Origin: Candidatus Nanoarchaeia archaeon | Lineage (GTDB): Archaea; Nanobdellota; Nanobdellia; JAQUSD01 | Reading direction: 5' to 3' | Length of the DNA stretch: 52,378 nucleotides | NCBI GenBank assembly: GCA_028715295.1 | Contig: JAQUSD010000003.1 | Location: 1-52,378 of the forward strand | Shown here: piece after piece, positions 19,395 to 39,596 of the stretch | Layout: each line of letters starts with the position of its first letter | Numbering within the stretch: the first letter of the stretch is position 1 | Notes under the pieces: generated by a model | Told to the model about the DNA's origin: nothing | The model's input: the letters and a program-made list of their open reading frames with translations, nothing else | Databases searched by the model: none | Translations under genes and position numbers: made by a program

Positions 19395-20078
19395 TTAAAG
19401 CATTTTAGTTAAGTCAAGAAGCAGAACCTCTTTAATATCTACGTGCTTCATAAACTTTTCAGTTGATTCTCCCGCCCCCCCAACAAGTTCATTGAATGCT
19501 GGGACAAGAATAATCTTCTTCTTTACACCATGAAACTCGCACTCACCAATAAACCACGCTTTATTTGGGGTTATTGATTCAACCCGGTCCCTTAACTTGT
19601 ATTCCGGGTGCACATGTCCAGCAATTATAATCTTCACTTTACTCATCATTTCCTTGCTTGGGAATGCATGTCCATGTATAAATCCAAAGCCACCCAGAGC
19701 CTGCTCCTTGATTATTTTAACTTTGACTTTTTCTTTCCTTGCTAAGTCTTCAAGCCCGGCATCATGGTTGCCTCTTACAATAATTATTTCTTTGAAAACG
19801 CTTGAAAGCTTTTCAATGAAAAAGGGGATTTCATTCTGCTCCTGCCAGCTTATCAAGGGTATGCTGTGTTTAAAGTCTCCAAGTATCATGAGACTTTGAG
19901 ACTTTGTTCTTTTACCTATTTTAATGAGTTTTTCAAGCATTTTAGAGGTTTGAGACACAACCGTTATGCCTCTACGTCTTAATTCTTTCTCAACACCAAT
20001 ATGCATGTCAGCAACAATAAGGGTTTTTCCTATACAAAAGGAAGCAGTATTTTTGTTAAATCTTACCTTCATAATCAT
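19395..20078 (-). CDS. Metallophosphoesterase, COG1407-like (Lhr-associated MPE type)
   Basis: ADMHIG, LGDFKH, GNHD, HGH, GHVHP, PAFN. Confidence 0.9.
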   Translation of the reverse strand: MIMKVRFNKNTASFCIGKTLIVADMHIGVEKELRRRGITVVSQTSKMLEKLIKIGKRTKSQSLMILGDFKHSIPLISWQEQNEIPFFIEKLSSVFKEIIIVRGNHDAGLEDLARKEKVKVKIIKEQALGGFGFIHGHAFPSKEMMSKVKIIIAGHVHPEYKLRDRVESITPNKAWFIGECEFHGVKKKIILVPAFNELVGGAGESTEKFMKHVDIKEVLLLDLTKML

Positions 20079-20377
20079 ACATATCTCAGGACAAGTTTTC
20101 TTGAAAACTCACAGTCCTCTTTTGAAACCCTGCCCTTTTCAAGAACAATGTTTAGGATAACACCAATTCTTTTTATCTCGTCTTCTGTAAACTTATAACC
20201 GCTTGCTTCTGAAAGATGTTTAAAGTCTTCTAAATCAGAAATTACTCCTGTTTTCTCAGCCATCTTAATTTTTAATGTTTTTAAATACAGGAAACTCGCA
20301 GAAGTATATTTTTTAGCTTTAAAATATTCTTCAGCCATTGCAAAATAATCAACATTTTTATTTTCAATATCTTCCAT
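20075..20377 (-). CDS. Small helical hypothetical protein (TPR- or HEPN-like first helix pair)
   Basis: YFAMAEEYFKAKKYTSASFLYLKTL; ATGA overlap with the downstream phosphoesterase. Confidence 0.6.
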   Translation of the reverse strand: MEDIENKNVDYFAMAEEYFKAKKYTSASFLYLKTLKIKMAEKTGVISDLEDFKHLSEASGYKFTEDEIKRIGVILNIVLEKGRVSKEDCEFSRKLVLRYV

Positions 20378-20431: not shown

Positions 20432-20935
20432 ATGGATTTAGAGCTGATGTGCACTTCAGGTAAATGTGGAATTTGCTGTTTTTATTATTACAAAAACAAA
20501 GGATACCATATTGCTTTTGAAAAAACAGCAAATACAGACAAAAAATTAAGTGAATTTATAGAAAAAAACAAAGACAAGATAATGGAAAACATTTCAGAAA
20601 TTGGGACCAAATCTTATTTTACAGCAATAAGAAAAGACGCTTATATTCTAACAAAACACGGGGAACGCTTTTATCCATGCTCTTTTTTAGACATAACTAG
20701 AAATGAAAACACAAAAACAATTGAAACCATCCTGTGTTCAATACATGAAAGTGATTACCGTCCGGATGTATGCAAAAACAAAGAAACTTCTAAAAACAGC
20801 CAAATTGAACCTTGCTGGGCTTTATTTTTCAAGGAGATTGCATGTATTGTTGTGAGTAAAAAACTATACAAATTAAATGACAATTTAATGGATTTATGCA
20901 GGTACTACGCGCATCTTTATGAAACATTTAAATAA
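20432..20935 (+). CDS. YkgJ-like CxxCxxCC Zn/Fe-chelating protein
   Basis: CTSGKCGICC ... PCSFL ... CSIH ... RPDVC. Confidence 0.72.
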   Translation: MDLELMCTSGKCGICCFYYYKNKGYHIAFEKTANTDKKLSEFIEKNKDKIMENISEIGTKSYFTAIRKDAYILTKHGERFYPCSFLDITRNENTKTIETILCSIHESDYRPDVCKNKETSKNSQIEPCWALFFKEIACIVVSKKLYKLNDNLMDLCRYYAHLYETFK

Positions 20936-20958: not shown

Positions 20959-21507
20959 ATGACAGAAGAACAGCAGTGTCCATTTTGTGCAATAGCGTCG
21001 GGAAATATTCCCTCAAAAGTCCTTTACGAAGATGATGCTGTTGTGGCTTTTCTTGATATAAATCCCGCAAATGCAGGACACACAATTATTATCCCAAAGA
21101 AGCACTACGCTTTTCTTTATCAGGTTCCAACTGAAGAAATGGTTAAATTATTTGCAGTAGCAAAAGCTCTTTCAGTTGCTGTTGTTCAGGCGGGCGGTGC
21201 ACAGGGCATGAATATGATTTATTCAATGGGCCCTGCAGCAGGACAGAGGGCCCCCCACATGATGATTCATTTAATTCCTAGGTTTGAAAACGATAAAGTG
21301 GTTATTTCATGGGATTCTGCACCAGCAAGCGAGGAAAACCTGGTAAACATGGCTGATAAAATAAAGTCAACTTTAAGAAGCGGGGGAGTATCAACCCCAG
21401 AAACAATTGAAGCACCAAAACCAGAGCCCAAGCCTTCTGAACCTGAAAAACAAGATGAAGAAGAAAAGCCAAAAATCACATGGGTCCCTCCAAAAAGAGT
21501 CCCTTAA
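20959..21507 (+). CDS. HIT-family protein with degenerate triad and Pro/Glu-rich tail
   Basis: CPFCAI, FLDINP, GHTIIIPKKH, GQRAPHMMIHLIPR. Confidence 0.9.
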   Translation: MTEEQQCPFCAIASGNIPSKVLYEDDAVVAFLDINPANAGHTIIIPKKHYAFLYQVPTEEMVKLFAVAKALSVAVVQAGGAQGMNMIYSMGPAAGQRAPHMMIHLIPRFENDKVVISWDSAPASEENLVNMADKIKSTLRSGGVSTPETIEAPKPEPKPSEPEKQDEEEKPKITWVPPKRVP

Positions 21508-21598
21508 ACTAAAAAAAGTTTTAATATAATTGGATAATTTTTGACATTATGAATGGTACTAAAAAGCATTAAAAATCTTTCACACGTCTAAAATTATA

Positions 21599-22528
21599 AT
21601 GACAAATTACCTTGTAACTGGAGGAGCTGGATTTATTGGTTCTAACCTTGTTGACGAACTAATCAAAAGAGGTTATAATGTTATAACTATCGACAATTTT
21701 GATGATTACTATTCGGAGGATTACAAACTTAAAAATCTAAACCCAAAAGCTAAACTTTACAAAGGGGATATAACAAATTACGAATTTCTTAAAGTTGTTT
21801 TTGACGAAAACAAAATAGACGGGGTTTTTCATTTAGCAGCAAAAGCAGGAGTAAGGGCATCTGTTGAAAAACCAGGAGAATATTTTAATGCAAATGTTGT
21901 AGGAACAGCAAACCTTCTTAAGTTATGTTCTGAAAGAAAGATAAAAGTTGTATTTGCTTCATCAAGTTCAGTATATGGGGAGGTAGAATACATCCCTACT
22001 GATGAAAACCATCCTAAAAATCCAATATCTCCCTATGCGTTGTCAAAACTGCACGCAGAACAGCTTTGTGAATTTTATATGAACCAGTATGATTTTCCTG
22101 TTGCATGGACAAGATTTTATACAGTTTATGGGCCAAGAGGGCGTCCGGACATGGCCATTGCAAAATTTACAAAAGCAGTTCTTAAAGGGGAACCAATAGA
22201 AATATATGGGAATGGAGAACAGCTCAGGGATTTTACTTATGTCAGTGATATTGTTCAGGGACTTACAAAAGTCATGCAGCTTGGAGCAAGAGGGTGTTTT
22301 AATCTTGGAACAAGCCAAAAAGTAAGCGTTAATGACTTAGTAAAGTATATAGAAGAAATAGCAAACAGAAAAGCAAATGTTATTTACACTGATAAAAAAG
22401 AAGGGGATGTTTCAAGAACCATGGCAGATATAACAAAAGCAAGGGAACTAGTGGGTTATAATCCAGAATACACAATACAGTCAGGAATTAAGGAGTATAT
22501 GTCCTGGTTTGTAAAGAACAGTGATTAG
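21599..22528 (+). CDS. NAD-dependent sugar-nucleotide epimerase (UDP-glucuronate 4-epimerase-like)
   Basis: GGAGFIGS, HLAAKAGVR, SSSSVYG, YALSK, YGPRGRPDMA. Confidence 0.92.
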   Translation: MTNYLVTGGAGFIGSNLVDELIKRGYNVITIDNFDDYYSEDYKLKNLNPKAKLYKGDITNYEFLKVVFDENKIDGVFHLAAKAGVRASVEKPGEYFNANVVGTANLLKLCSERKIKVVFASSSSVYGEVEYIPTDENHPKNPISPYALSKLHAEQLCEFYMNQYDFPVAWTRFYTVYGPRGRPDMAIAKFTKAVLKGEPIEIYGNGEQLRDFTYVSDIVQGLTKVMQLGARGCFNLGTSQKVSVNDLVKYIEEIANRKANVIYTDKKEGDVSRTMADITKARELVGYNPEYTIQSGIKEYMSWFVKNSD

Positions 22529-22531
22529 ATT

Positions 22532-22741
22532 TTATTTTAGCCCTTCTAATACATTAAGAAGGTCTTCTTCAGTCAACATATCCTTTTTAGGATTCTTTTT
22601 TGATTTTTTGTATGCTTTTGAAACAATACCCTTAATCTCATTTTCTAAAACATCAATTTTTTCAGCAGTTACTTCTCCTTCTTGCTGTGCAACAAAATCG
22701 TAAATTTTTTTCCTTACATCCAGCCAGTTAATATAACTCAT
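22532..22741 (-). CDS. Probable histone-fold protein (short-alpha2 type), 69 aa
   Basis: MSYINWLDVRKKIYDF...EVTAEKIDVLENEIKGIVSKAYKKSKKNPKKDMLTEEDL; start at ATG 22741 supported by a promoter. Confidence 0.6.
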   Translation of the reverse strand: MSYINWLDVRKKIYDFVAQQEGEVTAEKIDVLENEIKGIVSKAYKKSKKNPKKDMLTEEDLLNVLEGLK

Positions 22742-22766
22742 ATAATTTTTATTTGTTAGGTATAAT

Positions 22767-22780
22767 ATTATAAATTTTTC
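22767..22780 (-). promoter_or_regulatory. BRE/TATA promoter of the histone-like gene
   Basis: Minus strand GAAAAA-TTTATAAT, 26 nt upstream of ATG 22741. Confidence 0.7.
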
Positions 22781-23967
22781 TAGAACACGCATCCGCTAAT
22801 CATAGTGTTGCATTCAGTTTTCATTCCAATTCCTATCTTGGAATCAGAAAGAATACGGCATTTTCCTGCAATAAATGCATTTTCACCAATAACAGAACAG
22901 GAACCTATCTCAGCATTTTCCATTATTTTTACATTGCTTGAAATTATGCTTGATTTTAACTCACAATCTTCTTTTATTTCACAGTTTTCAAATATTATTG
23001 AACTGTTTATTGTGCATTTATTGCCGATATTAACATTATCAAGTATCATTGAATAAGGAGTTATAAGGCAGTCATTTCCGATTTCCACATTTTTTCCAAT
23101 AACAACAGGAGCAAGGAGTTTTGTATTTTCTCCTATTTTAGTATTATCACCAATAATTATTCCTTCACCAACAAGAACACCACGATTCAGGAAGTTTTCT
23201 CCTATTTTTTTTATTTTTTTATTTTTAAGTTCATTCATAACACCTTTGTTGGCTTCAAGATATGTTTTTGGAGTGCCAATATCATACCACTCTTCTGAAA
23301 ACTCAAAACCATAAAGCCTGCATTTTCCAAGAAGATAAGTAAAAAAGTCACCAAGATTGTCAGCTTTTTTAACATCATTTATGAATTTAGGCAGAAGTTC
23401 GGTAATAACTCTTTTATTAAGAAAATAACATCCCGTGCTTGCAAGAGTTGAGGGGGGCTCTTTTGGTTTTTCAATAAAATGTATAATTTCTTTTTTATTA
23501 TTGATTTCAGCTATACCGTACAGTTTTGCTTTTTCTAAGTCTCCTAGATTATAAAGGGCGACAGTAGCTTCAGACTTGTTTTTTACATGGAATTCAGCAA
23601 ACTTTTTCGTGTCAAAGTTAATTATATTGTCCCCAAGCATTACAATACATTCTTCATTTATACCAGATTTTTTAACAGCGTAATCCATTGCTCTTACAGC
23701 ACCTAGTTTTTGATTGTTGTCCTCAGAACCCTCAATAACATATGTAAAATTAACATTATTATACATTTTATCAGTATAATTTTTTATTTCCTCATAAAAA
23801 ATCTTATTTGTGCATATCGCAATGTCTTTTAAGCCAATTTCAAGGATTTTATCAATACTATACGCAATAACCGGCTTTGAAGCGACAGGAAGCATATTTT
23901 TCGACTTTGTTTTTGTAAGCGGTTCAAGTCTTTTTGCAAATCCACCTGCCATTATTAAAGCCTTCAT
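22780..23967 (-). CDS. Sugar-phosphate nucleotidyltransferase with C-terminal hexapeptide (LbH) repeats
   Basis: MAGGFAKRLEPLT, LGDN, EKP, WYDIGT, then I/V-G-x-N/x hexapeptide repeats. Confidence 0.92.
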   Translation of the reverse strand: MKALIMAGGFAKRLEPLTKTKSKNMLPVASKPVIAYSIDKILEIGLKDIAICTNKIFYEEIKNYTDKMYNNVNFTYVIEGSEDNNQKLGAVRAMDYAVKKSGINEECIVMLGDNIINFDTKKFAEFHVKNKSEATVALYNLGDLEKAKLYGIAEINNKKEIIHFIEKPKEPPSTLASTGCYFLNKRVITELLPKFINDVKKADNLGDFFTYLLGKCRLYGFEFSEEWYDIGTPKTYLEANKGVMNELKNKKIKKIGENFLNRGVLVGEGIIIGDNTKIGENTKLLAPVVIGKNVEIGNDCLITPYSMILDNVNIGNKCTINSSIIFENCEIKEDCELKSSIISSNVKIMENAEIGSCSVIGENAFIAGKCRILSDSKIGIGMKTECNTMISGCVF

Positions 23968-25295
23968 TTTTCAATCTCCTCTTTAATTATTGCAGAATAC
24001 TTTTCTTTTAGTTCTTTTAGTCTTATATCATTTTCAGCTTCTATACAAAGACATATTTCTGGATTTGTGTTGCTTTTTCTAAGCATAACCCATTCAATAT
24101 CATTAAGGAAAAATTTTATTCCGTCTTCTTTTGAAGCTCTTGGTTCATTCTCAAATCTTTTAACAAGATGTTCTATTGCATTATTCTTATTTTCCTCATT
24201 TTTACAGTGAAAATATTCTTTATATGTTGGATGAAGTTCAAGAGAATCAACAATTTCCGAAAGTTTTTTATCAGCGTTGCTTAGAAATTCAGCCATTTTT
24301 AGTCCTGTTATAAGTCCGTCTGAAAATGGATACAAGCCAAACCCATAAAAATGAGAACTCTGCTCTCCGCCAAACACAGCATTGTTTTTGTAAACAGCGT
24401 CTTCTATAAAGCCATGTCCTACTTTTATCCATATTACCTTAGCACCCATTTTTTTAGCTTTAATTTCTATTTCACTTGCACAGTCAAGAGTGGCTACAAT
24501 GGGTTTCGTATCTTTTCCAAGAAAATGCTCCATTAAAACCATTATAGTAATACTTCCTAACATTTCACGTCCTTTGTCATCAACAAGAACTCCCCTGTCC
24601 GCATCACCATCAAAAGCAATACCAAAATCAGCGCCTTCTTTTATTACAGTTTCTTTAAGTAAGTTTAGTTCCTCTCCTTTTGGCTCAGGACGTACCCCCC
24701 CGAAATCACCAAGAGGGGTGTCTCTTAGAGAAACAACATTAATCCCACAGCGTTTATATAAATTTTCAGCAATAGTTCCTGCAGTTGCATTCATGCAGTC
24801 AATTACAACTTTGACAGGCATTCTTATAATTGTTTTTGATTTAACAAAATCAGAATAAAGTTTTAAGCCATCATCTTTTTCGAGAGTTCCATACCCTCTA
24901 AGAAATTCGCTGTTTTTTACAATTTGTTTTATCTCTGAGTATTCTTCAATGTAAGAAACCCCTGTGGGCCGGATTAGTTTAAATCCATTGTATTGCGGAG
25001 GATTGTGGGAAGCAGTAACCATGACACCGTTAATTTTTTTGTTAAAAGCATAAAAATAAGCAACAGGGCTTGGAACAGCACCAATGTCTATTACATCAAT
25101 TCCAGTTGAGAGCAAACCATTAATTAAAGCCTCACTTATTGGTTTTGAAGATGTTCTTGAATCATAACCTACAACAACTTTTCCAGCCTTTAGAAATGTG
25201 CCAAGCGCCTTTCCTATTATTTCTGCACCATTGTCATCAAGCTGTTCAGGATAAATACCCCTTATGTCATAGGCTTTGAATATTTCAAAGTCCAT
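23964..25295 (-). CDS. Phosphomannomutase/phosphoglucomutase
   Basis: FKAYDIRG, TASHNP, FDGDADR, GEQSSH, RKSNT. Confidence 0.95.
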   Translation of the reverse strand: MDFEIFKAYDIRGIYPEQLDDNGAEIIGKALGTFLKAGKVVVGYDSRTSSKPISEALINGLLSTGIDVIDIGAVPSPVAYFYAFNKKINGVMVTASHNPPQYNGFKLIRPTGVSYIEEYSEIKQIVKNSEFLRGYGTLEKDDGLKLYSDFVKSKTIIRMPVKVVIDCMNATAGTIAENLYKRCGINVVSLRDTPLGDFGGVRPEPKGEELNLLKETVIKEGADFGIAFDGDADRGVLVDDKGREMLGSITIMVLMEHFLGKDTKPIVATLDCASEIEIKAKKMGAKVIWIKVGHGFIEDAVYKNNAVFGGEQSSHFYGFGLYPFSDGLITGLKMAEFLSNADKKLSEIVDSLELHPTYKEYFHCKNEENKNNAIEHLVKRFENEPRASKEDGIKFFLNDIEWVMLRKSNTNPEICLCIEAENDIRLKELKEKYSAIIKEEIEK

Positions 25296-38477: not shown

Positions 38478-39596
38478 ATGAAAGTTCCTCCAGTTAAAAT
38501 CTGTTTTTCAGAACAAGACAAAGCAAATATTAAAAATGAAATAGACGAAGTTCTCTCAAGTGGAATGCTCACCCTCGGGAAGCATAATAAAAGATTTGAA
38601 GAAGAATTTTCAAAATATACTGGTTCAAAGCATGCAATTGCAGTAAACAGCGGAACATCATCACTTGAAATACCTTTGAGAATAACAGGTGTAAAAGGTA
38701 AAAACGTAATTGTTCCTACAAATACATTTTTTGCAACACCCGCGTCTGTTGTTCATGCAGGTGGAAATGTAAAATTTGCAGATGTGGATGTAGAAACATT
38801 ATCAATTAATGCTGAAACTGTAAAAGAGCTTGCTGATGAAAACACAACAGCCATGATGATGGTTCATATAGGTGGGATAATTTCTCCTGAAGTTGAAAAA
38901 ATTCAGAAATTTTGCAGAGAAAATAATATCACCCTTATAGAAGATGCGGCTCATGCACACGGATGTTCAATAAACGGAAAAAATGCAGGAACTTTCGGTA
39001 AGGCGTCATCATTTTCATTCTATCCTACAAAAGTTATAACAAGCGGAGAGGGGGGCATGATAATAACAGATGACGATGAAATTGACAGAAGAGCAAGAAT
39101 ATTCAGAGACCAGGGAAAAGCCAGTTTTACAACAAACGATGCTGTAGAAATGGGCTATAACTGGAGAATGAGCGAAGTTCACGCTATAATCGGATACCAC
39201 CAGCTCAAAAGACTTGATGAGTTTATAGAAAATCGGAACAAAATAGCACAAATTTACAATAAGGAACTTAATGATGTTGATAAAATACAACCATTAAAAT
39301 TGCCTGAAAACAGCAGGTGCAATTATTACAAATATATTGCTGTTTTGGACAGTTCGGTTAACAGAGATGTGTTTAAAAAAACACTAAAAGAAAATTATGA
39401 GGTTTCATGCAGTGGCGAGGTTTATGATAAACCATGTCATCTCCAGCCGGTTTTTTCATATTTAGGCTATAAAAAAGGAGATTTACCGGTTTCAGAGGAT
39501 TTGTGTTCAAAACATGTGTGTCTCCCAATATTCCCTGAAATGACAGATGAACAGGCAGTCTATGTTGCTGACAGTATAAGGAAGGTGCTTAAATGA
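38478..39596 (+). CDS. DegT/DnrJ/EryC1/StrS sugar aminotransferase
   Basis: NSGTSSL, EDAAHAHG, SFYPTKVITSGEGGM (PLP lysine), GYNWRMSE. Confidence 0.95.
   Translation: MKVPPVKICFSEQDKANIKNEIDEVLSSGMLTLGKHNKRFEEEFSKYTGSKHAIAVNSGTSSLEIPLRITGVKGKNVIVPTNTFFATPASVVHAGGNVKFADVDVETLSINAETVKELADENTTAMMMVHIGGIISPEVEKIQKFCRENNITLIEDAAHAHGCSINGKNAGTFGKASSFSFYPTKVITSGEGGMIITDDDEIDRRARIFRDQGKASFTTNDAVEMGYNWRMSEVHAIIGYHQLKRLDEFIENRNKIAQIYNKELNDVDKIQPLKLPENSRCNYYKYIAVLDSSVNRDVFKKTLKENYEVSCSGEVYDKPCHLQPVFSYLGYKKGDLPVSEDLCSKHVCLPIFPEMTDEQAVYVADSIRKVLK

What the first reader, a model, noticed from the sequence alone, without database searches (positions are those of the whole stretch)
22532..22741. Probable divergent histone hidden in the sugar cluster
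The 69-aa product has its own textbook BRE/TATA at -26. The segment EVTAEKIDVLENEIKGIVSKA...KN.KK...EDL fits the L1-alpha2-L2-alpha3 spacing of histones whose alpha2 is about one turn shorter (DUF1931/Bd0055/face-to-face type; Bd0055 recalled from memory as SAETIDVL here). The DNA-contacting RKT of L2 is replaced by KKDM with a one-residue insertion, so DNA binding or oligomerisation may be non-canonical.
Basis: partly seen in the sequence, partly recalled or inferred. Interest (0 to 1): 0.62.

Follow-up and report, generated by a model that had tools for sequence, protein, structure and literature searches.

The report
Divergent orphan mini-histone in DPANN archaeon
A real 69-codon gene with its own promoter in a tiny (DPANN-type) archaeal genome encodes a one-off, very divergent relative of the small "face-to-face" archaeal histones; it has lost two key DNA-contact residues and the short C-terminal end those histones need to close into a ring, so it probably works differently from them.

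Summary
The ORF at 22532-22741 (minus strand, 69 aa) has strong coding statistics. Its BRE/TATA lies where this genome's leaderless promoters normally put it.

The histone reading is supported by sequence, but not proven by structure:
- The best PDB match is the face-to-face (FtF) histone HTkC (E=0.006).
- An FtF profile built from class relatives ranks this ORF third of 11,459 six-frame ORFs in the genome (E=1e-3). The two above it are genuine tandem FtF histones on another contig.
- None of 5,000 shuffles reaches its score.
- hhalign gives 76% probability.
- 7 of its 21 best weak matches across 400 related genomes are genuine FtF histones.

It has no orthologue anywhere searched.

It departs from the family in four ways. 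RxT becomes K-K-D with a one-residue insertion. The L1 arginine that enters the minor groove becomes Glu. The pI is 6.3. Helix alpha3 is full length (about 10 residues), not truncated, so the C-terminal carboxylate that closes the HTkC ring is displaced.

It most likely forms a histone-fold dimer that cannot form the FtF torus and binds DNA weakly or differently. This is inferred. No dimer model or expression data could be obtained.

The scan has noted a similar divergent mini-histone in another DPANN genome.

Novelty: new variant of a known kind. Interest is moderate.

The parts
22532..22741 (-). Coding sequence of the 69-aa protein (P0001), stop codon TAA included
   Evidence: Codon score is +0.54 bits per codon, and the other five frames are negative.
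22767..22774 (-). TATA box TTTATAAT, at -33 to -26 from the ATG. This implies a leaderless or near-leaderless mRNA.
   Evidence: Genome-wide TTTAWAW positions peak at -30/-31, and 13 genes have the box at -33 against a background of about 2.5 per position.
22775..22781 (-). BRE-like purine/A-rich element AGAAAAA directly upstream of the TATA box. It overlaps the TAG stop codon of the upstream NTP-transferase gene.
   Evidence: The logo of 116 promoters in this genome shows RRAAA at -7 to -3 from the TATA box; this gene has AGAAA.
22679..22726 (-). Predicted helix alpha1 (residues 6-21). It begins with the basic triad R10-K11-K12, which aligns with the HTkC DNA contacts K7-S8-K9.
   Evidence: AlphaFold without an alignment and with one. 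Alignment to HTkC. HTkC contact residues from bioRxiv 10.64898/2025.12.06.692711.
22667..22678 (-). Loop L1 (residues 22-25, G-E-V-T). E23 occupies the position of HTkC R22, the arginine that enters the DNA minor groove.
22595..22666 (-). Helix alpha2 (residues 26-49). It aligns with FtF alpha2 without gaps. It keeps the family-invariant L32 and A43, has K46 in place of the tetramer arginine (HTkC R45), and ends in a lysine-rich stretch K45-K49.
   Evidence: HMM alignment, MAFFT alignment A2, and the helix limits in the models (H26-44, H26-49).
22571..22594 (-). Loop L2 (residues 50-57, N-P-K-K-D-M-L-T). N50 is conserved. K52-K53-D54 replace R-K-T, and there is a one-residue insertion before the conserved Asp.
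22541..22570 (-). Full-length helix alpha3 (residues 58-67, containing the conserved D60). Nine residues follow the Asp, against one in FtF histones.
   Evidence: H58-67. All 53 FtF rows in alignment A2 end at D-L.
22790..22792 (-). Alternative upstream ATG. It would give an 86-aa product overlapping the end of the NTP-transferase gene by 13 nt. It is the less likely start.
   Evidence: The 17-codon extension is encoded by the promoter-like sequence itself and its codon score is uninformative. FtF relatives start a few residues before the V-K-S-K motif.

Best explanation
The ORF is a real, independently transcribed gene. Its product is a lineage-specific, fast-evolved paralogue of the alpha3-family (face-to-face type) prokaryotic histones. 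The same genome already has two ordinary copies in tandem on another contig.

The protein keeps the alpha1-L1-alpha2-L2-alpha3 layout with the short alpha2 of that family, and it keeps the most conserved scaffold positions (V9, L32, A43, N50, D60). It should therefore form a histone-fold handshake dimer. This step is inferred, not shown.

Two changes alter how it can work:
1. Its alpha3 helix is full length. The C-terminal carboxylate that pairs with the tetramer arginine (HTkC R45; here K46) to close the FtF ring lies nine residues further on. The closed toroidal tetramer that wraps DNA is therefore unlikely.
2. The paired L1-L2 DNA site is degraded. The L1 minor-groove Arg is now Glu23, and the L2 Thr is now Asp54, with a one-residue insertion. 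The basic alpha1 N-terminus (R10-K11-K12) and a lysine-rich alpha2 end/L2 (K45-K53) remain.

The most likely mode of action is a dimer-level, weak or altered DNA binder that bends rather than wraps, like the bacterial dimer histone HBb. A second possibility is a partner that pairs with the canonical FtF histones and prevents ring closure.

What is shown: the gene is real, the promoter placement fits the genome, and the sequence relationship to FtF histones holds. What is inferred: dimerisation, loss of the torus, and the mode of DNA binding.
For: Gene and promoter: (codon score at the 89th percentile of real genes; TATA at -33 within the genome's -34 to -30 promoter window; BRE-like AGAAA).

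Relationship to FtF histones:
- The top hit among 177,635 PDB sequences is the FtF histone HTkC 9F2C, E=0.006, covering residues 9-55.
- A 33-sequence FtF HMM from class relatives ranks the ORF third of 11,459 six-frame ORFs of the genome, at 18.8 bits and E=1e-3. The two ORFs above it are true FtF histones, and the next hit has E=0.07.
- A second HMM built from about 120 database FtF histones gives the same rank, E=0.006.
- 5,000 shuffles reach at most 11.9 bits against 19.7 for the real sequence. The reversed sequence scores 0.3.
- hhalign gives 76% probability, E=2e-5, over 49 columns.
- In single-sequence searches of 400 class genomes, 7 of the 21 best non-self hits, including the best one, are genuine FtF histones scoring 62-95 bits on the FtF HMM.
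- The FtF profile itself is anchored to solved histones: HTkC 3e-18, HBb 3e-13, HMfA 6e-4.

Structure:
- AlphaFold without any alignment places three helices at 6-21, 26-44 and 58-67 with a loop at 22-25. These are the positions the FtF alignment predicts.
- With an FtF alignment, alpha2 becomes 26-49, and the top Foldseek hits are HBb and HTkC with TM 0.57-0.66 and rmsd about 2.1-2.4 A. This second run is circular and serves only as a compatibility check.

Residue roles come from the HTkC study and from Schwab et al. 2024, PMC11390915.
Against: - All similarity scores are modest (17-20 bits).
- No Pfam, NCBIfam, PHROG or PADLOC family is matched.
- The alignment-free model found no histone in the PDB at any useful significance. 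Even the alignment-guided model has Foldseek E of about 0.4.
- The protein has no homologue in 1.84 billion representatives, 5.8 billion clusters, metagenome or genome contigs, or 400 class genomes. No conservation or covariation can support the fold.
- Net charge is 0 and pI is 6.3, against 9.9 for the genome's canonical FtF histone.
- Truncated alpha3 and RxT, both family hallmarks, are missing.
- A weaker resemblance to the C-terminal lid of a small AAA+ ATPase family also exists.
- Dimerisation, DNA binding and expression are untested.
Confidence: 0.62

Rival explanations
1. It is a histone-fold protein that no longer acts on DNA. In this reading it is a protein-protein adaptor (as TAFs, NC2 or the DUF1931 proteins are thought to be), or a dedicated partner that heterodimerises with the two canonical FtF histones and caps or blocks ring formation.
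For: The pI is 6.3 and net charge is 0. Acidic residues sit at both the L1 Arg and L2 Thr positions. The extended alpha3 sits at the surface used for dimer-dimer contact. The genome already has two FtF histones and two Alba proteins for bulk chromatin. Schwab et al. note that some prokaryotic histone-fold proteins probably have non-chromatin roles.
Against: The R10-K11-K12 triad at the alpha1 DNA-contact positions and the seven lysines between residues 45 and 53 look like a retained nucleic-acid-binding surface. No evidence for any partner exists.
Confidence: 0.2
2. It is a real small helical protein unrelated to histones. The similarity would then be chance or convergence between Lys/Glu-rich helix-loop-helix sequences, and the function would be unknown, possibly tied to the neighbouring sugar-nucleotide genes.
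For: Scores are only 17-20 bits. Pfam shows comparably weak noise hits (CEP76_N at E=0.005). Several best hits in other genomes are unrelated long proteins. The gene sits 38 nt downstream of the NTP-transferase gene on the same strand.
Against: None of 5,000 composition-matched shuffles reaches the score. Seven of 21 best hits being FtF histones, which are roughly 1-2 of about 10,000 ORFs per genome, cannot be explained by chance. Secondary-structure boundaries from an alignment-free model agree with the alignment. No small ORF accompanies the orthologous NTP-transferase genes in 29 relatives.
Confidence: 0.12
3. It is a stand-alone descendant of the C-terminal lid (helix-strand-helix) domain of an AAA+ ATPase of the archaeal ATPase_2 type. 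On this reading it folds as an unswapped monomer rather than as a histone dimer.
For: Single-sequence hits fall on the lid of a small AAA+ family in three genomes, with a shared K-S-K-x-N-P-(K/R) sensor-2 region. A 3-sequence HMM of that family gives 17.4 bits, the second-best hit in the genome. P0001 scores 8.4 bits on the lid-only HMM, whereas true FtF histones reach at most 4.8 bits; only 10 of 5,000 shuffles reach 8.4. The histone fold is proposed to derive from this lid by 3D domain swapping (Alva et al. 2007, PMC1847821).
Against: With a 30-sequence family profile the signal falls to 5.6 bits for the full-length model and 8.4 bits (E=1) for the lid-only model, against 17-20 bits for the FtF profiles. 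There is no pairwise similarity to the genome's own AAA+ copy at C33:1988-2656. In the lid register, the family's strand segment (s-i-e-P-F-t) would fall in the middle of a confidently predicted continuous helix of P0001.
Confidence: 0.04
4. It is not a gene, only a chance open frame in an intergenic gap.
For: It has no homologues anywhere.
Against: The codon statistics are at the 89th percentile of true genes and all other frames are negative. The chance of such an open frame at this GC content is about 0.001-0.005. The promoter is correctly placed. There is no Rfam hit.
Confidence: 0.02

Closest known systems
Face-to-face (FtF) alpha3-truncated histones, e.g. HTkC of Thermococcus kodakarensis (PDB 9F2C; Schwab et al. 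2024, PMC11390915; bioRxiv 10.64898/2025.12.06.692711)
   Same: It is the best PDB and profile match. It has the same alpha1-L1-alpha2-L2 spacing, with an ungapped alignment through the short alpha2. V9, L32, A43, N50 (the family's ring-contact Asn) and D60 are conserved. The basic alpha1 N-terminus aligns with the K7-S8-K9 DNA contacts, and K53 aligns with K52.
   Different: - alpha3 is about 10 residues instead of 3-4, so the C-terminal carboxylate that pairs with R45 is displaced.
- R45 is K46 here.
- R22 (minor groove) is E23.
- R51-K52-T53 is K52-K53-D54, with a one-residue insertion.
- The pI is 6.3 rather than about 10.
- It is a singleton with no family, and it is the third paralogue in a genome that already has two FtF histones.
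Bacterial dimer histones HBb/Bd0055 (PDB 8FVX, 8CMP, 9F0E)
   Same: It is the top Foldseek hit of the alignment-guided model (TM 0.57-0.61). The L1/alpha2 start is similar (SAETIDVL in HBb, TAEKIDVL here). HBb is expected to stop at the dimer and bend DNA rather than wrap it, which is the mode inferred here.
   Different: HBb keeps RKTxxxD and lacks the R48/N52 pair, whereas P0001 keeps K46/N50 and loses RxT. HBb is basic and abundant. The category is defined as bacterial. HBb did not appear in the direct phmmer search at E up to 10.
Nucleosomal archaeal histones (HMfA/HMfB, Pfam PF00808)
   Same: The alpha3 helix has the same length and a similar hydrophobic pattern after the conserved Glu-Asp (EDLLNVLEGLK here; recalled from memory as EDIELAVRRFKK in HMfB).
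   Different: There is no PF00808 match at E up to 10. alpha2 is 4-5 residues shorter. There is no RxT, and no evidence of the four-helix-bundle residues.
C-terminal lid domain of archaeal ATPase_2-type AAA+ proteins (PF01637), the proposed ancestor of the histone fold (Alva et al. 2007, PMC1847821)
   Same: It shares a helix-strand-helix type motif and a K-S-K-x-N-P-basic stretch with some members.
   Different: The family-wide profile gives only 5.6-8.4 bits. There is no ATPase domain. The lid's strand segment has no counterpart in P0001's continuous alpha2.

Membership tests
alpha3-truncated / face-to-face histones (Schwab et al. 2024) | Significant sequence similarity to the family profile | tested here: met
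   FtF HMMs give 17-20 bits, E=1e-3 to 6e-3 over 11,459 genome ORFs, rank 3 behind two true FtF histones. hhalign gives 76%. HTkC is the top PDB hit, E=0.006. 0 of 5,000 shuffles reach the score. 7 of 21 best hits in 400 genomes are FtF histones. The match is weak but consistent.
alpha3-truncated / face-to-face histones (Schwab et al. 2024) | Histone fold: alpha1-L1-alpha2-L2-alpha3 forming an interleaved handshake dimer | tested here: inconclusive
   Three helices lie at the expected positions in an alignment-free AlphaFold model, but the monomer gave no significant histone hit. The alignment-guided model matches HBb and HTkC (TM 0.57-0.66, E about 0.4), which is circular. No multimer prediction was available.
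alpha3-truncated / face-to-face histones (Schwab et al. 2024) | alpha2 is 4-5 residues shorter than in nucleosomal histones | tested here: met
   The alignment through alpha2 to FtF histones is ungapped. The helix spans 26-49 (24 residues) in the alignment-guided model.
alpha3-truncated / face-to-face histones (Schwab et al. 2024) | alpha3 truncated to 3-4 residues, with the protein ending just after the conserved Asp | tested here: not met
   Nine residues follow D60, and helix 58-67 is predicted in both models. All 53 FtF rows of A2 end at D-L.
alpha3-truncated / face-to-face histones (Schwab et al. 2024) | RxTxxxxD motif in L2/alpha3 | tested here: not met
   The motif here is K52-x-D54-x5-D60: Arg to Lys, Thr to Asp, a one-residue insertion, and only the Asp retained. 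R, T and D are invariant in the 27-sequence alignment A1.
alpha3-truncated / face-to-face histones (Schwab et al. 2024) | Tetramer residues R48 and N52 (HTkC R45), and ring closure through the C-terminal carboxylate | tested here: inconclusive
   N50 is conserved. The Arg is replaced by K46. The C-terminus is displaced by the alpha3 extension. The oligomeric state is not testable with these tools.
alpha3-truncated / face-to-face histones (Schwab et al. 2024) | Basic DNA-binding protein with L1 Arg and L2 Lys-Thr contacts | tested here: not met
   The pI is 6.3 and net charge is 0, against 9.9 for the genome's own FtF histone. HTkC R22 is E23 here and T53 is D54. K7/S8/K9 are R10/K11/K12 and K52 is K53, which are retained. 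DNA binding itself was not tested.
Bacterial dimer histones (HBb/Bd0055 type) | Sequence cluster with HBb, RKTxxxD present, R48/N52 absent, bacterial host | tested here: not met
   There was no direct phmmer hit to 8fvx/8cmp at E up to 10. RKT is absent, and K46/N50 are present. The host is an archaeon of a DPANN-type class, where FtF relatives are annotated as Woesearchaeota/Nanoarchaeota.
Nucleosomal archaeal histones (Pfam PF00808 CBFD_NFYB_HMF) | Match to the Pfam model | tested here: not met
   No hit at E up to 10.
DUF1931 (Pfam PF09123) | Match to the Pfam model | tested here: not met
   No hit at E up to 10. The genome-wide search with PF09123 does not find this ORF.
AAA+ lid (C-) domain of ATPase_2-type proteins (PF01637) | Match to the family-wide lid profile, including the strand segment and the sensor-2 GNPR motif | tested here: not met
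   The 30-sequence profile gives 5.6 bits and the lid-only profile 8.4 bits, E=1. Only a 3-sequence HMM gives 17.4 bits. P0001 has K-N-P-K where the family has G-N-P-R, and it has no P-F strand motif.

The most novel reading that the evidence does not exclude
P0001 is a naturally occurring modulator histone. It keeps the FtF dimerisation scaffold, but its full-length alpha3 and acidic L1/L2 make it a cap: it heterodimerises with, or docks onto, the two canonical FtF histones and stops the DNA-wrapping ring from closing. This would give a minimal-genome archaeon a way to tune chromatin compaction.

A still more exotic variant is that it is a living intermediate between the AAA+ lid domain and the domain-swapped histone fold. 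This rests on its weak but above-shuffle similarity to both.
Probability: 0.1. Interest if true: 0.7.

Novelty: new variant of a known kind. Interest (0 to 1): 0.42.

Why it matters
FtF histones were recognised only in 2024. Their ring-closing mechanism, an arginine paired with the C-terminal carboxylate of a truncated alpha3, was tested only in 2025.

This protein is a natural paralogue that keeps the scaffold but restores a long alpha3 and replaces two DNA-contact residues with acidic ones. It is therefore a ready-made test of which features make a short-alpha2 histone wrap, bend or ignore DNA.

It also suggests that DPANN archaea with very small genomes may run more than one kind of histone-fold protein. 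Together with a similar divergent mini-histone noted elsewhere in this scan, it hints that fast-evolving orphan histone paralogues may be recurrent in DPANN genomes and are missed by Pfam-based annotation.

If the similarity is only skin-deep, it is just one more orphan small protein.

Tried and rejected
- **Family libraries.** Pfam, NCBIfam, PHROGs and PADLOC scans of the protein gave only noise.
- **Homologue searches.** Nothing but the protein itself turned up in the 5.8-billion-cluster word search, the exhaustive phmmer over 1.84 billion representatives (two long repetitive proteins at E about 5e-4 were taken as spurious), metagenome contigs, genome contigs (one 19-residue pattern artefact in a Xanthobacteraceae MAG), or 400 genomes of the same class.
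- **Synteny.** Orthologues of the upstream NTP-transferase/LbH gene are at most 36-38% identical. None of 29 loci has a related small ORF or an FtF-like ORF next to it.
- **Structure.** Foldseek of the alignment-free AlphaFold model gave no significant hits; EF-hand and miscellaneous helical proteins led the list.
- **Bacterial motif scan.** The sigma-70 and intrinsic-terminator scan is not applicable to an archaeon and found nothing above shuffles.
- **RNA.** Rfam found nothing in 21000-24500.
- **Mobile element or foreign DNA.** There are no tRNA genes in the window, and the ORF's GC content matches its neighbours.
- **Recent duplication of the AAA+ lid.** Rejected: there is no pairwise similarity to the genome's own copy, and the family-wide profile does not support it.
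- **The 86-aa start.** Considered less likely.

Full report
**What is there**

The minus strand of 22532-22741 carries a 69-codon ORF. The product is MSYINWLDVRKKIYDFVAQQEGEVTAEKIDVLENEIKGIVSKAYKKSKKNPKKDMLTEEDLLNVLEGLK.

- It fills the gap between a nucleotidyltransferase/left-handed-beta-helix gene (22780-23967, same strand) and a convergent NAD-dependent epimerase gene (21599-22528).
- The wider neighbourhood is a sugar-nucleotide cluster: phosphomannomutase, a second NTP-transferase and UDP-glucose dehydrogenase.
- The window is contig 2 of a 777-kb genome with 33.5% GC, estimated 94% complete. All its available relatives are related only at class level.
- FtF-histone relatives of this class are annotated in public records as Woesearchaeota, Nanoarchaeota or Aenigmarchaeota. 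The organism is therefore a DPANN-type archaeon on a sparsely sampled branch.

**Is it a gene?**

I trained a codon model on 620 long ORFs of the same genome.
- The ORF scores +0.54 bits per codon in its own frame. This is the 89th percentile of 69-codon windows taken from real genes.
- All five other frames score negative.
- No wrong-frame window from real genes reaches this score.
- An open frame of this length has a chance probability of 0.001-0.005 at this GC content.
- There is no Rfam match.

**Does it have its own promoter?**

- Across 614 long genes, the motif TTTAWAW starts overwhelmingly 30-31 nt upstream of the ATG (45 and 35 genes). The shoulders are at -32 (16 genes), -33 (13) and -34 (7). 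The background elsewhere is 2-3 genes per position. The genome therefore uses mostly leaderless transcripts.
- This ORF has TTTATAAT starting at -33.
- The five positions before these boxes have the consensus RRAAA, and this gene has AGAAA.
- The box is thus in the right window, 2-3 nt upstream of the mode.
- This placement, plus the architecture of relatives, favours the ATG at 22741 over an upstream ATG at 22792 that would give 86 aa.

**Is it related to histones?**

Curated libraries say nothing, but they barely recognise even genuine FtF histones. The genome's own FtF histone scores below the cut-off on PF00808, PF00125 and PF09123.

Direct evidence:
1. Against all PDB sequences, the top hit is HTkC, the crystallised FtF histone of Thermococcus kodakarensis (E=0.006, residues 9-55).
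2. I collected 33 FtF histones from genomes of the same class and built an HMM. I searched it against all 11,459 six-frame ORFs of at least 30 aa in this genome.
   - The hits were two tandem FtF histones on contig 32 (E=1e-23 and 5e-10), then this ORF (18.8 bits, E=1e-3), then nothing better than E=0.07.
   - A second HMM from about 120 database FtF histones gives the same rank (E=0.006).
3. Of 5,000 shuffles of the protein, none exceeds 11.9 bits, against 19.7 for the real sequence. The reversed sequence scores 0.3.
4. hhalign of the single sequence against the FtF alignment gives 76% probability and E=2e-5 over 49 columns.
5. In single-sequence searches of 400 genomes of the class, 7 of the 21 best non-self matches, including the best, are bona fide FtF histones scoring 62-95 bits on the FtF HMM. 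Such genes are about one or two in ten thousand six-frame ORFs.
6. The FtF profile itself is firmly tied to solved histones: HTkC 3e-18, HBb/Bd0055 3e-13, HMfA 6e-4.

**Structure**

- AlphaFold2 on the single sequence uses no information from histones. It gives pLDDT 77 and helices at 6-21, 26-44 and 58-67 with a loop at 22-25. These are the boundaries the FtF alignment predicts.
- That compact monomer has no significant Foldseek match. This is expected for a fold that exists only as an interleaved dimer, and it leaves the question open.
- With an FtF alignment as input, the model has alpha2 at 26-49. Its best PDB matches are HBb and HTkC (TM 0.57-0.66, rmsd 2.1-2.4 A over 53 columns), followed by eukaryotic histones and NF-Y.
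- That second run is circular and shows only compatibility.

**How it differs from the family**

Residue roles come from Schwab et al. 2024 and the HTkC study.

| Feature in HTkC / FtF family | In P0001 | Status |
|---|---|---|
| V, L, A, N, D scaffold positions | V9, L32, A43, N50, D60 | retained |
| alpha1 DNA contacts K7/S8/K9 | R10/K11/K12 | retained |
| L2 contact K52 | K53 | retained |
| Ring arginine R45 | K46 | conservative change |
| Motif arginine R51 | K52 | conservative change |
| Minor-groove arginine R22 (L1) | E23 | lost, now acidic |
| L2 threonine T53 | D54 | lost, now acidic |
| alpha1 contact K11 | Y14 | lost |

- There is a one-residue insertion in L2.
- Nine residues follow the conserved Asp, where FtF histones have one. 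This gives a 10-residue alpha3 of nucleosomal length.
- In HTkC the ring closes through a salt bridge between R45 and the C-terminal carboxylate of the truncated alpha3, and the R45A mutant is a dimer. A protein whose C-terminus is nine residues further away is unlikely to close that ring.
- Net charge is 0 (pI 6.3), against pI 9.9 for the genome's canonical FtF histone. The positive charge is nonetheless concentrated at the alpha1 N-terminus and in K45-K53.

**A rival that turned up**

- Some of the best single-sequence hits fall on the C-terminal lid of a small AAA+ ATPase (Pfam ATPase_2). They share a K-S-K-x-N-P-basic stretch.
- A 3-sequence HMM of that family scores P0001 at 17.4 bits.
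- That family is present in 52 of 151 class genomes, including this one at C33:1988-2656.
- With 30 sequences, the full-length profile gives 5.6 bits and a lid-only profile gives 8.4 bits (E=1), against 17-20 bits for the FtF profiles.
- There is no pairwise similarity to the genome's own copy.
- The lid's strand segment would fall inside P0001's continuous alpha2.
- I therefore rank this rival low.
- Still, P0001 scores higher on the lid profile than any true FtF histone does (maximum 4.8 bits), and only 10 of 5,000 shuffles reach its score. This is a small oddity. It recalls the proposal that the histone fold arose from the AAA+ lid by domain swapping (Alva et al. 2007).

**Orphan status and context**

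- No homologue exists in any collection searched.
- No relative has a comparable ORF beside the orthologous sugar genes.
- Given that the lineage has no sequenced close relatives, this fits a fast-evolving lineage-specific paralogue.
- The position in the sugar cluster looks incidental.
- There are no tRNA genes in the window, and there is no compositional anomaly at the ORF.
- The genome also has two Alba genes, no HU, and no nucleosomal histone above the Pfam cut-off.

**Verdict**

This is very probably (about 0.8) a derived member of the short-alpha2 histone lineage. It fails two defining features of the alpha3/FtF family (truncated alpha3 and RxT), so it is best described as a new variant rather than a member.
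- The mechanism is inference: a histone-fold dimer that cannot form the FtF torus, with weakened L1-L2 DNA contacts.
I could not compare the two sequences.

Noticed in passing
Outside the window: G000 contig C32:38796-38957 and 39039-39206 (locus L023:1258-1422 and 1501-1671): There are two FtF-type histone genes in tandem. The downstream one is canonical (…RADGNKRNTLMEHDI). The upstream one (MDLIVKSKVKEYLKKKGKRTSLEAIEALNREVLLLCDKAAKRAKDVGTIKERHV) lacks the ring Asn and the R-K of the NGRKT motif, and it ends in R-H-V, much as HTkC does. Counting P0001, this 0.78-Mb genome has three different short-alpha2 histone-fold proteins.
   Followed up: partly
Outside the window: G000 contig C33:1988-2656 (locus L084): This is a 223-aa stand-alone AAA+ ATPase (Pfam ATPase_2, Walker A GGYGSGKT, lid with GNPR). 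It is conserved in 52 of 151 genomes of the class and its function is unknown. In three genomes its lid resembles P0001 more than expected (17 bits with a 3-sequence HMM).
   Followed up: partly
Whole genome G000; example in the window at 22767-22781: TTTAWAW boxes start at -30/-31 from the ATG in about 13% of long genes, and within -34 to -30 in 19%. They are preceded by an RRAAA BRE-like element. Most transcripts in this genome are therefore leaderless. This is useful for calling starts of small genes here.
   Followed up: yes
window 20075-20377 (-) and 20432-20935 (+): These are two divergently oriented ORFs of 100 aa and 167 aa with no Pfam match at E up to 1e-5. The 167-aa ORF is Cys-rich near both ends.
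   Followed up: no
window 22526-22540: The convergent epimerase gene and the mini-histone gene end only 3 nt apart. The T-rich stretch TTTTATTTTA that would terminate the epimerase transcript lies inside the last codons of the mini-histone gene, so the two transcripts probably overlap at their 3' ends.
   Followed up: no
Locus L011:1504-1680 (+) (genome G053, contig C2): This is an FtF-like histone with an RxT motif (R-I-T) but a roughly 5-residue longer alpha2 end (…EKLNNSYKYAKYNGRITLKKEDLK). It is another atypical DPANN variant.
   Followed up: no
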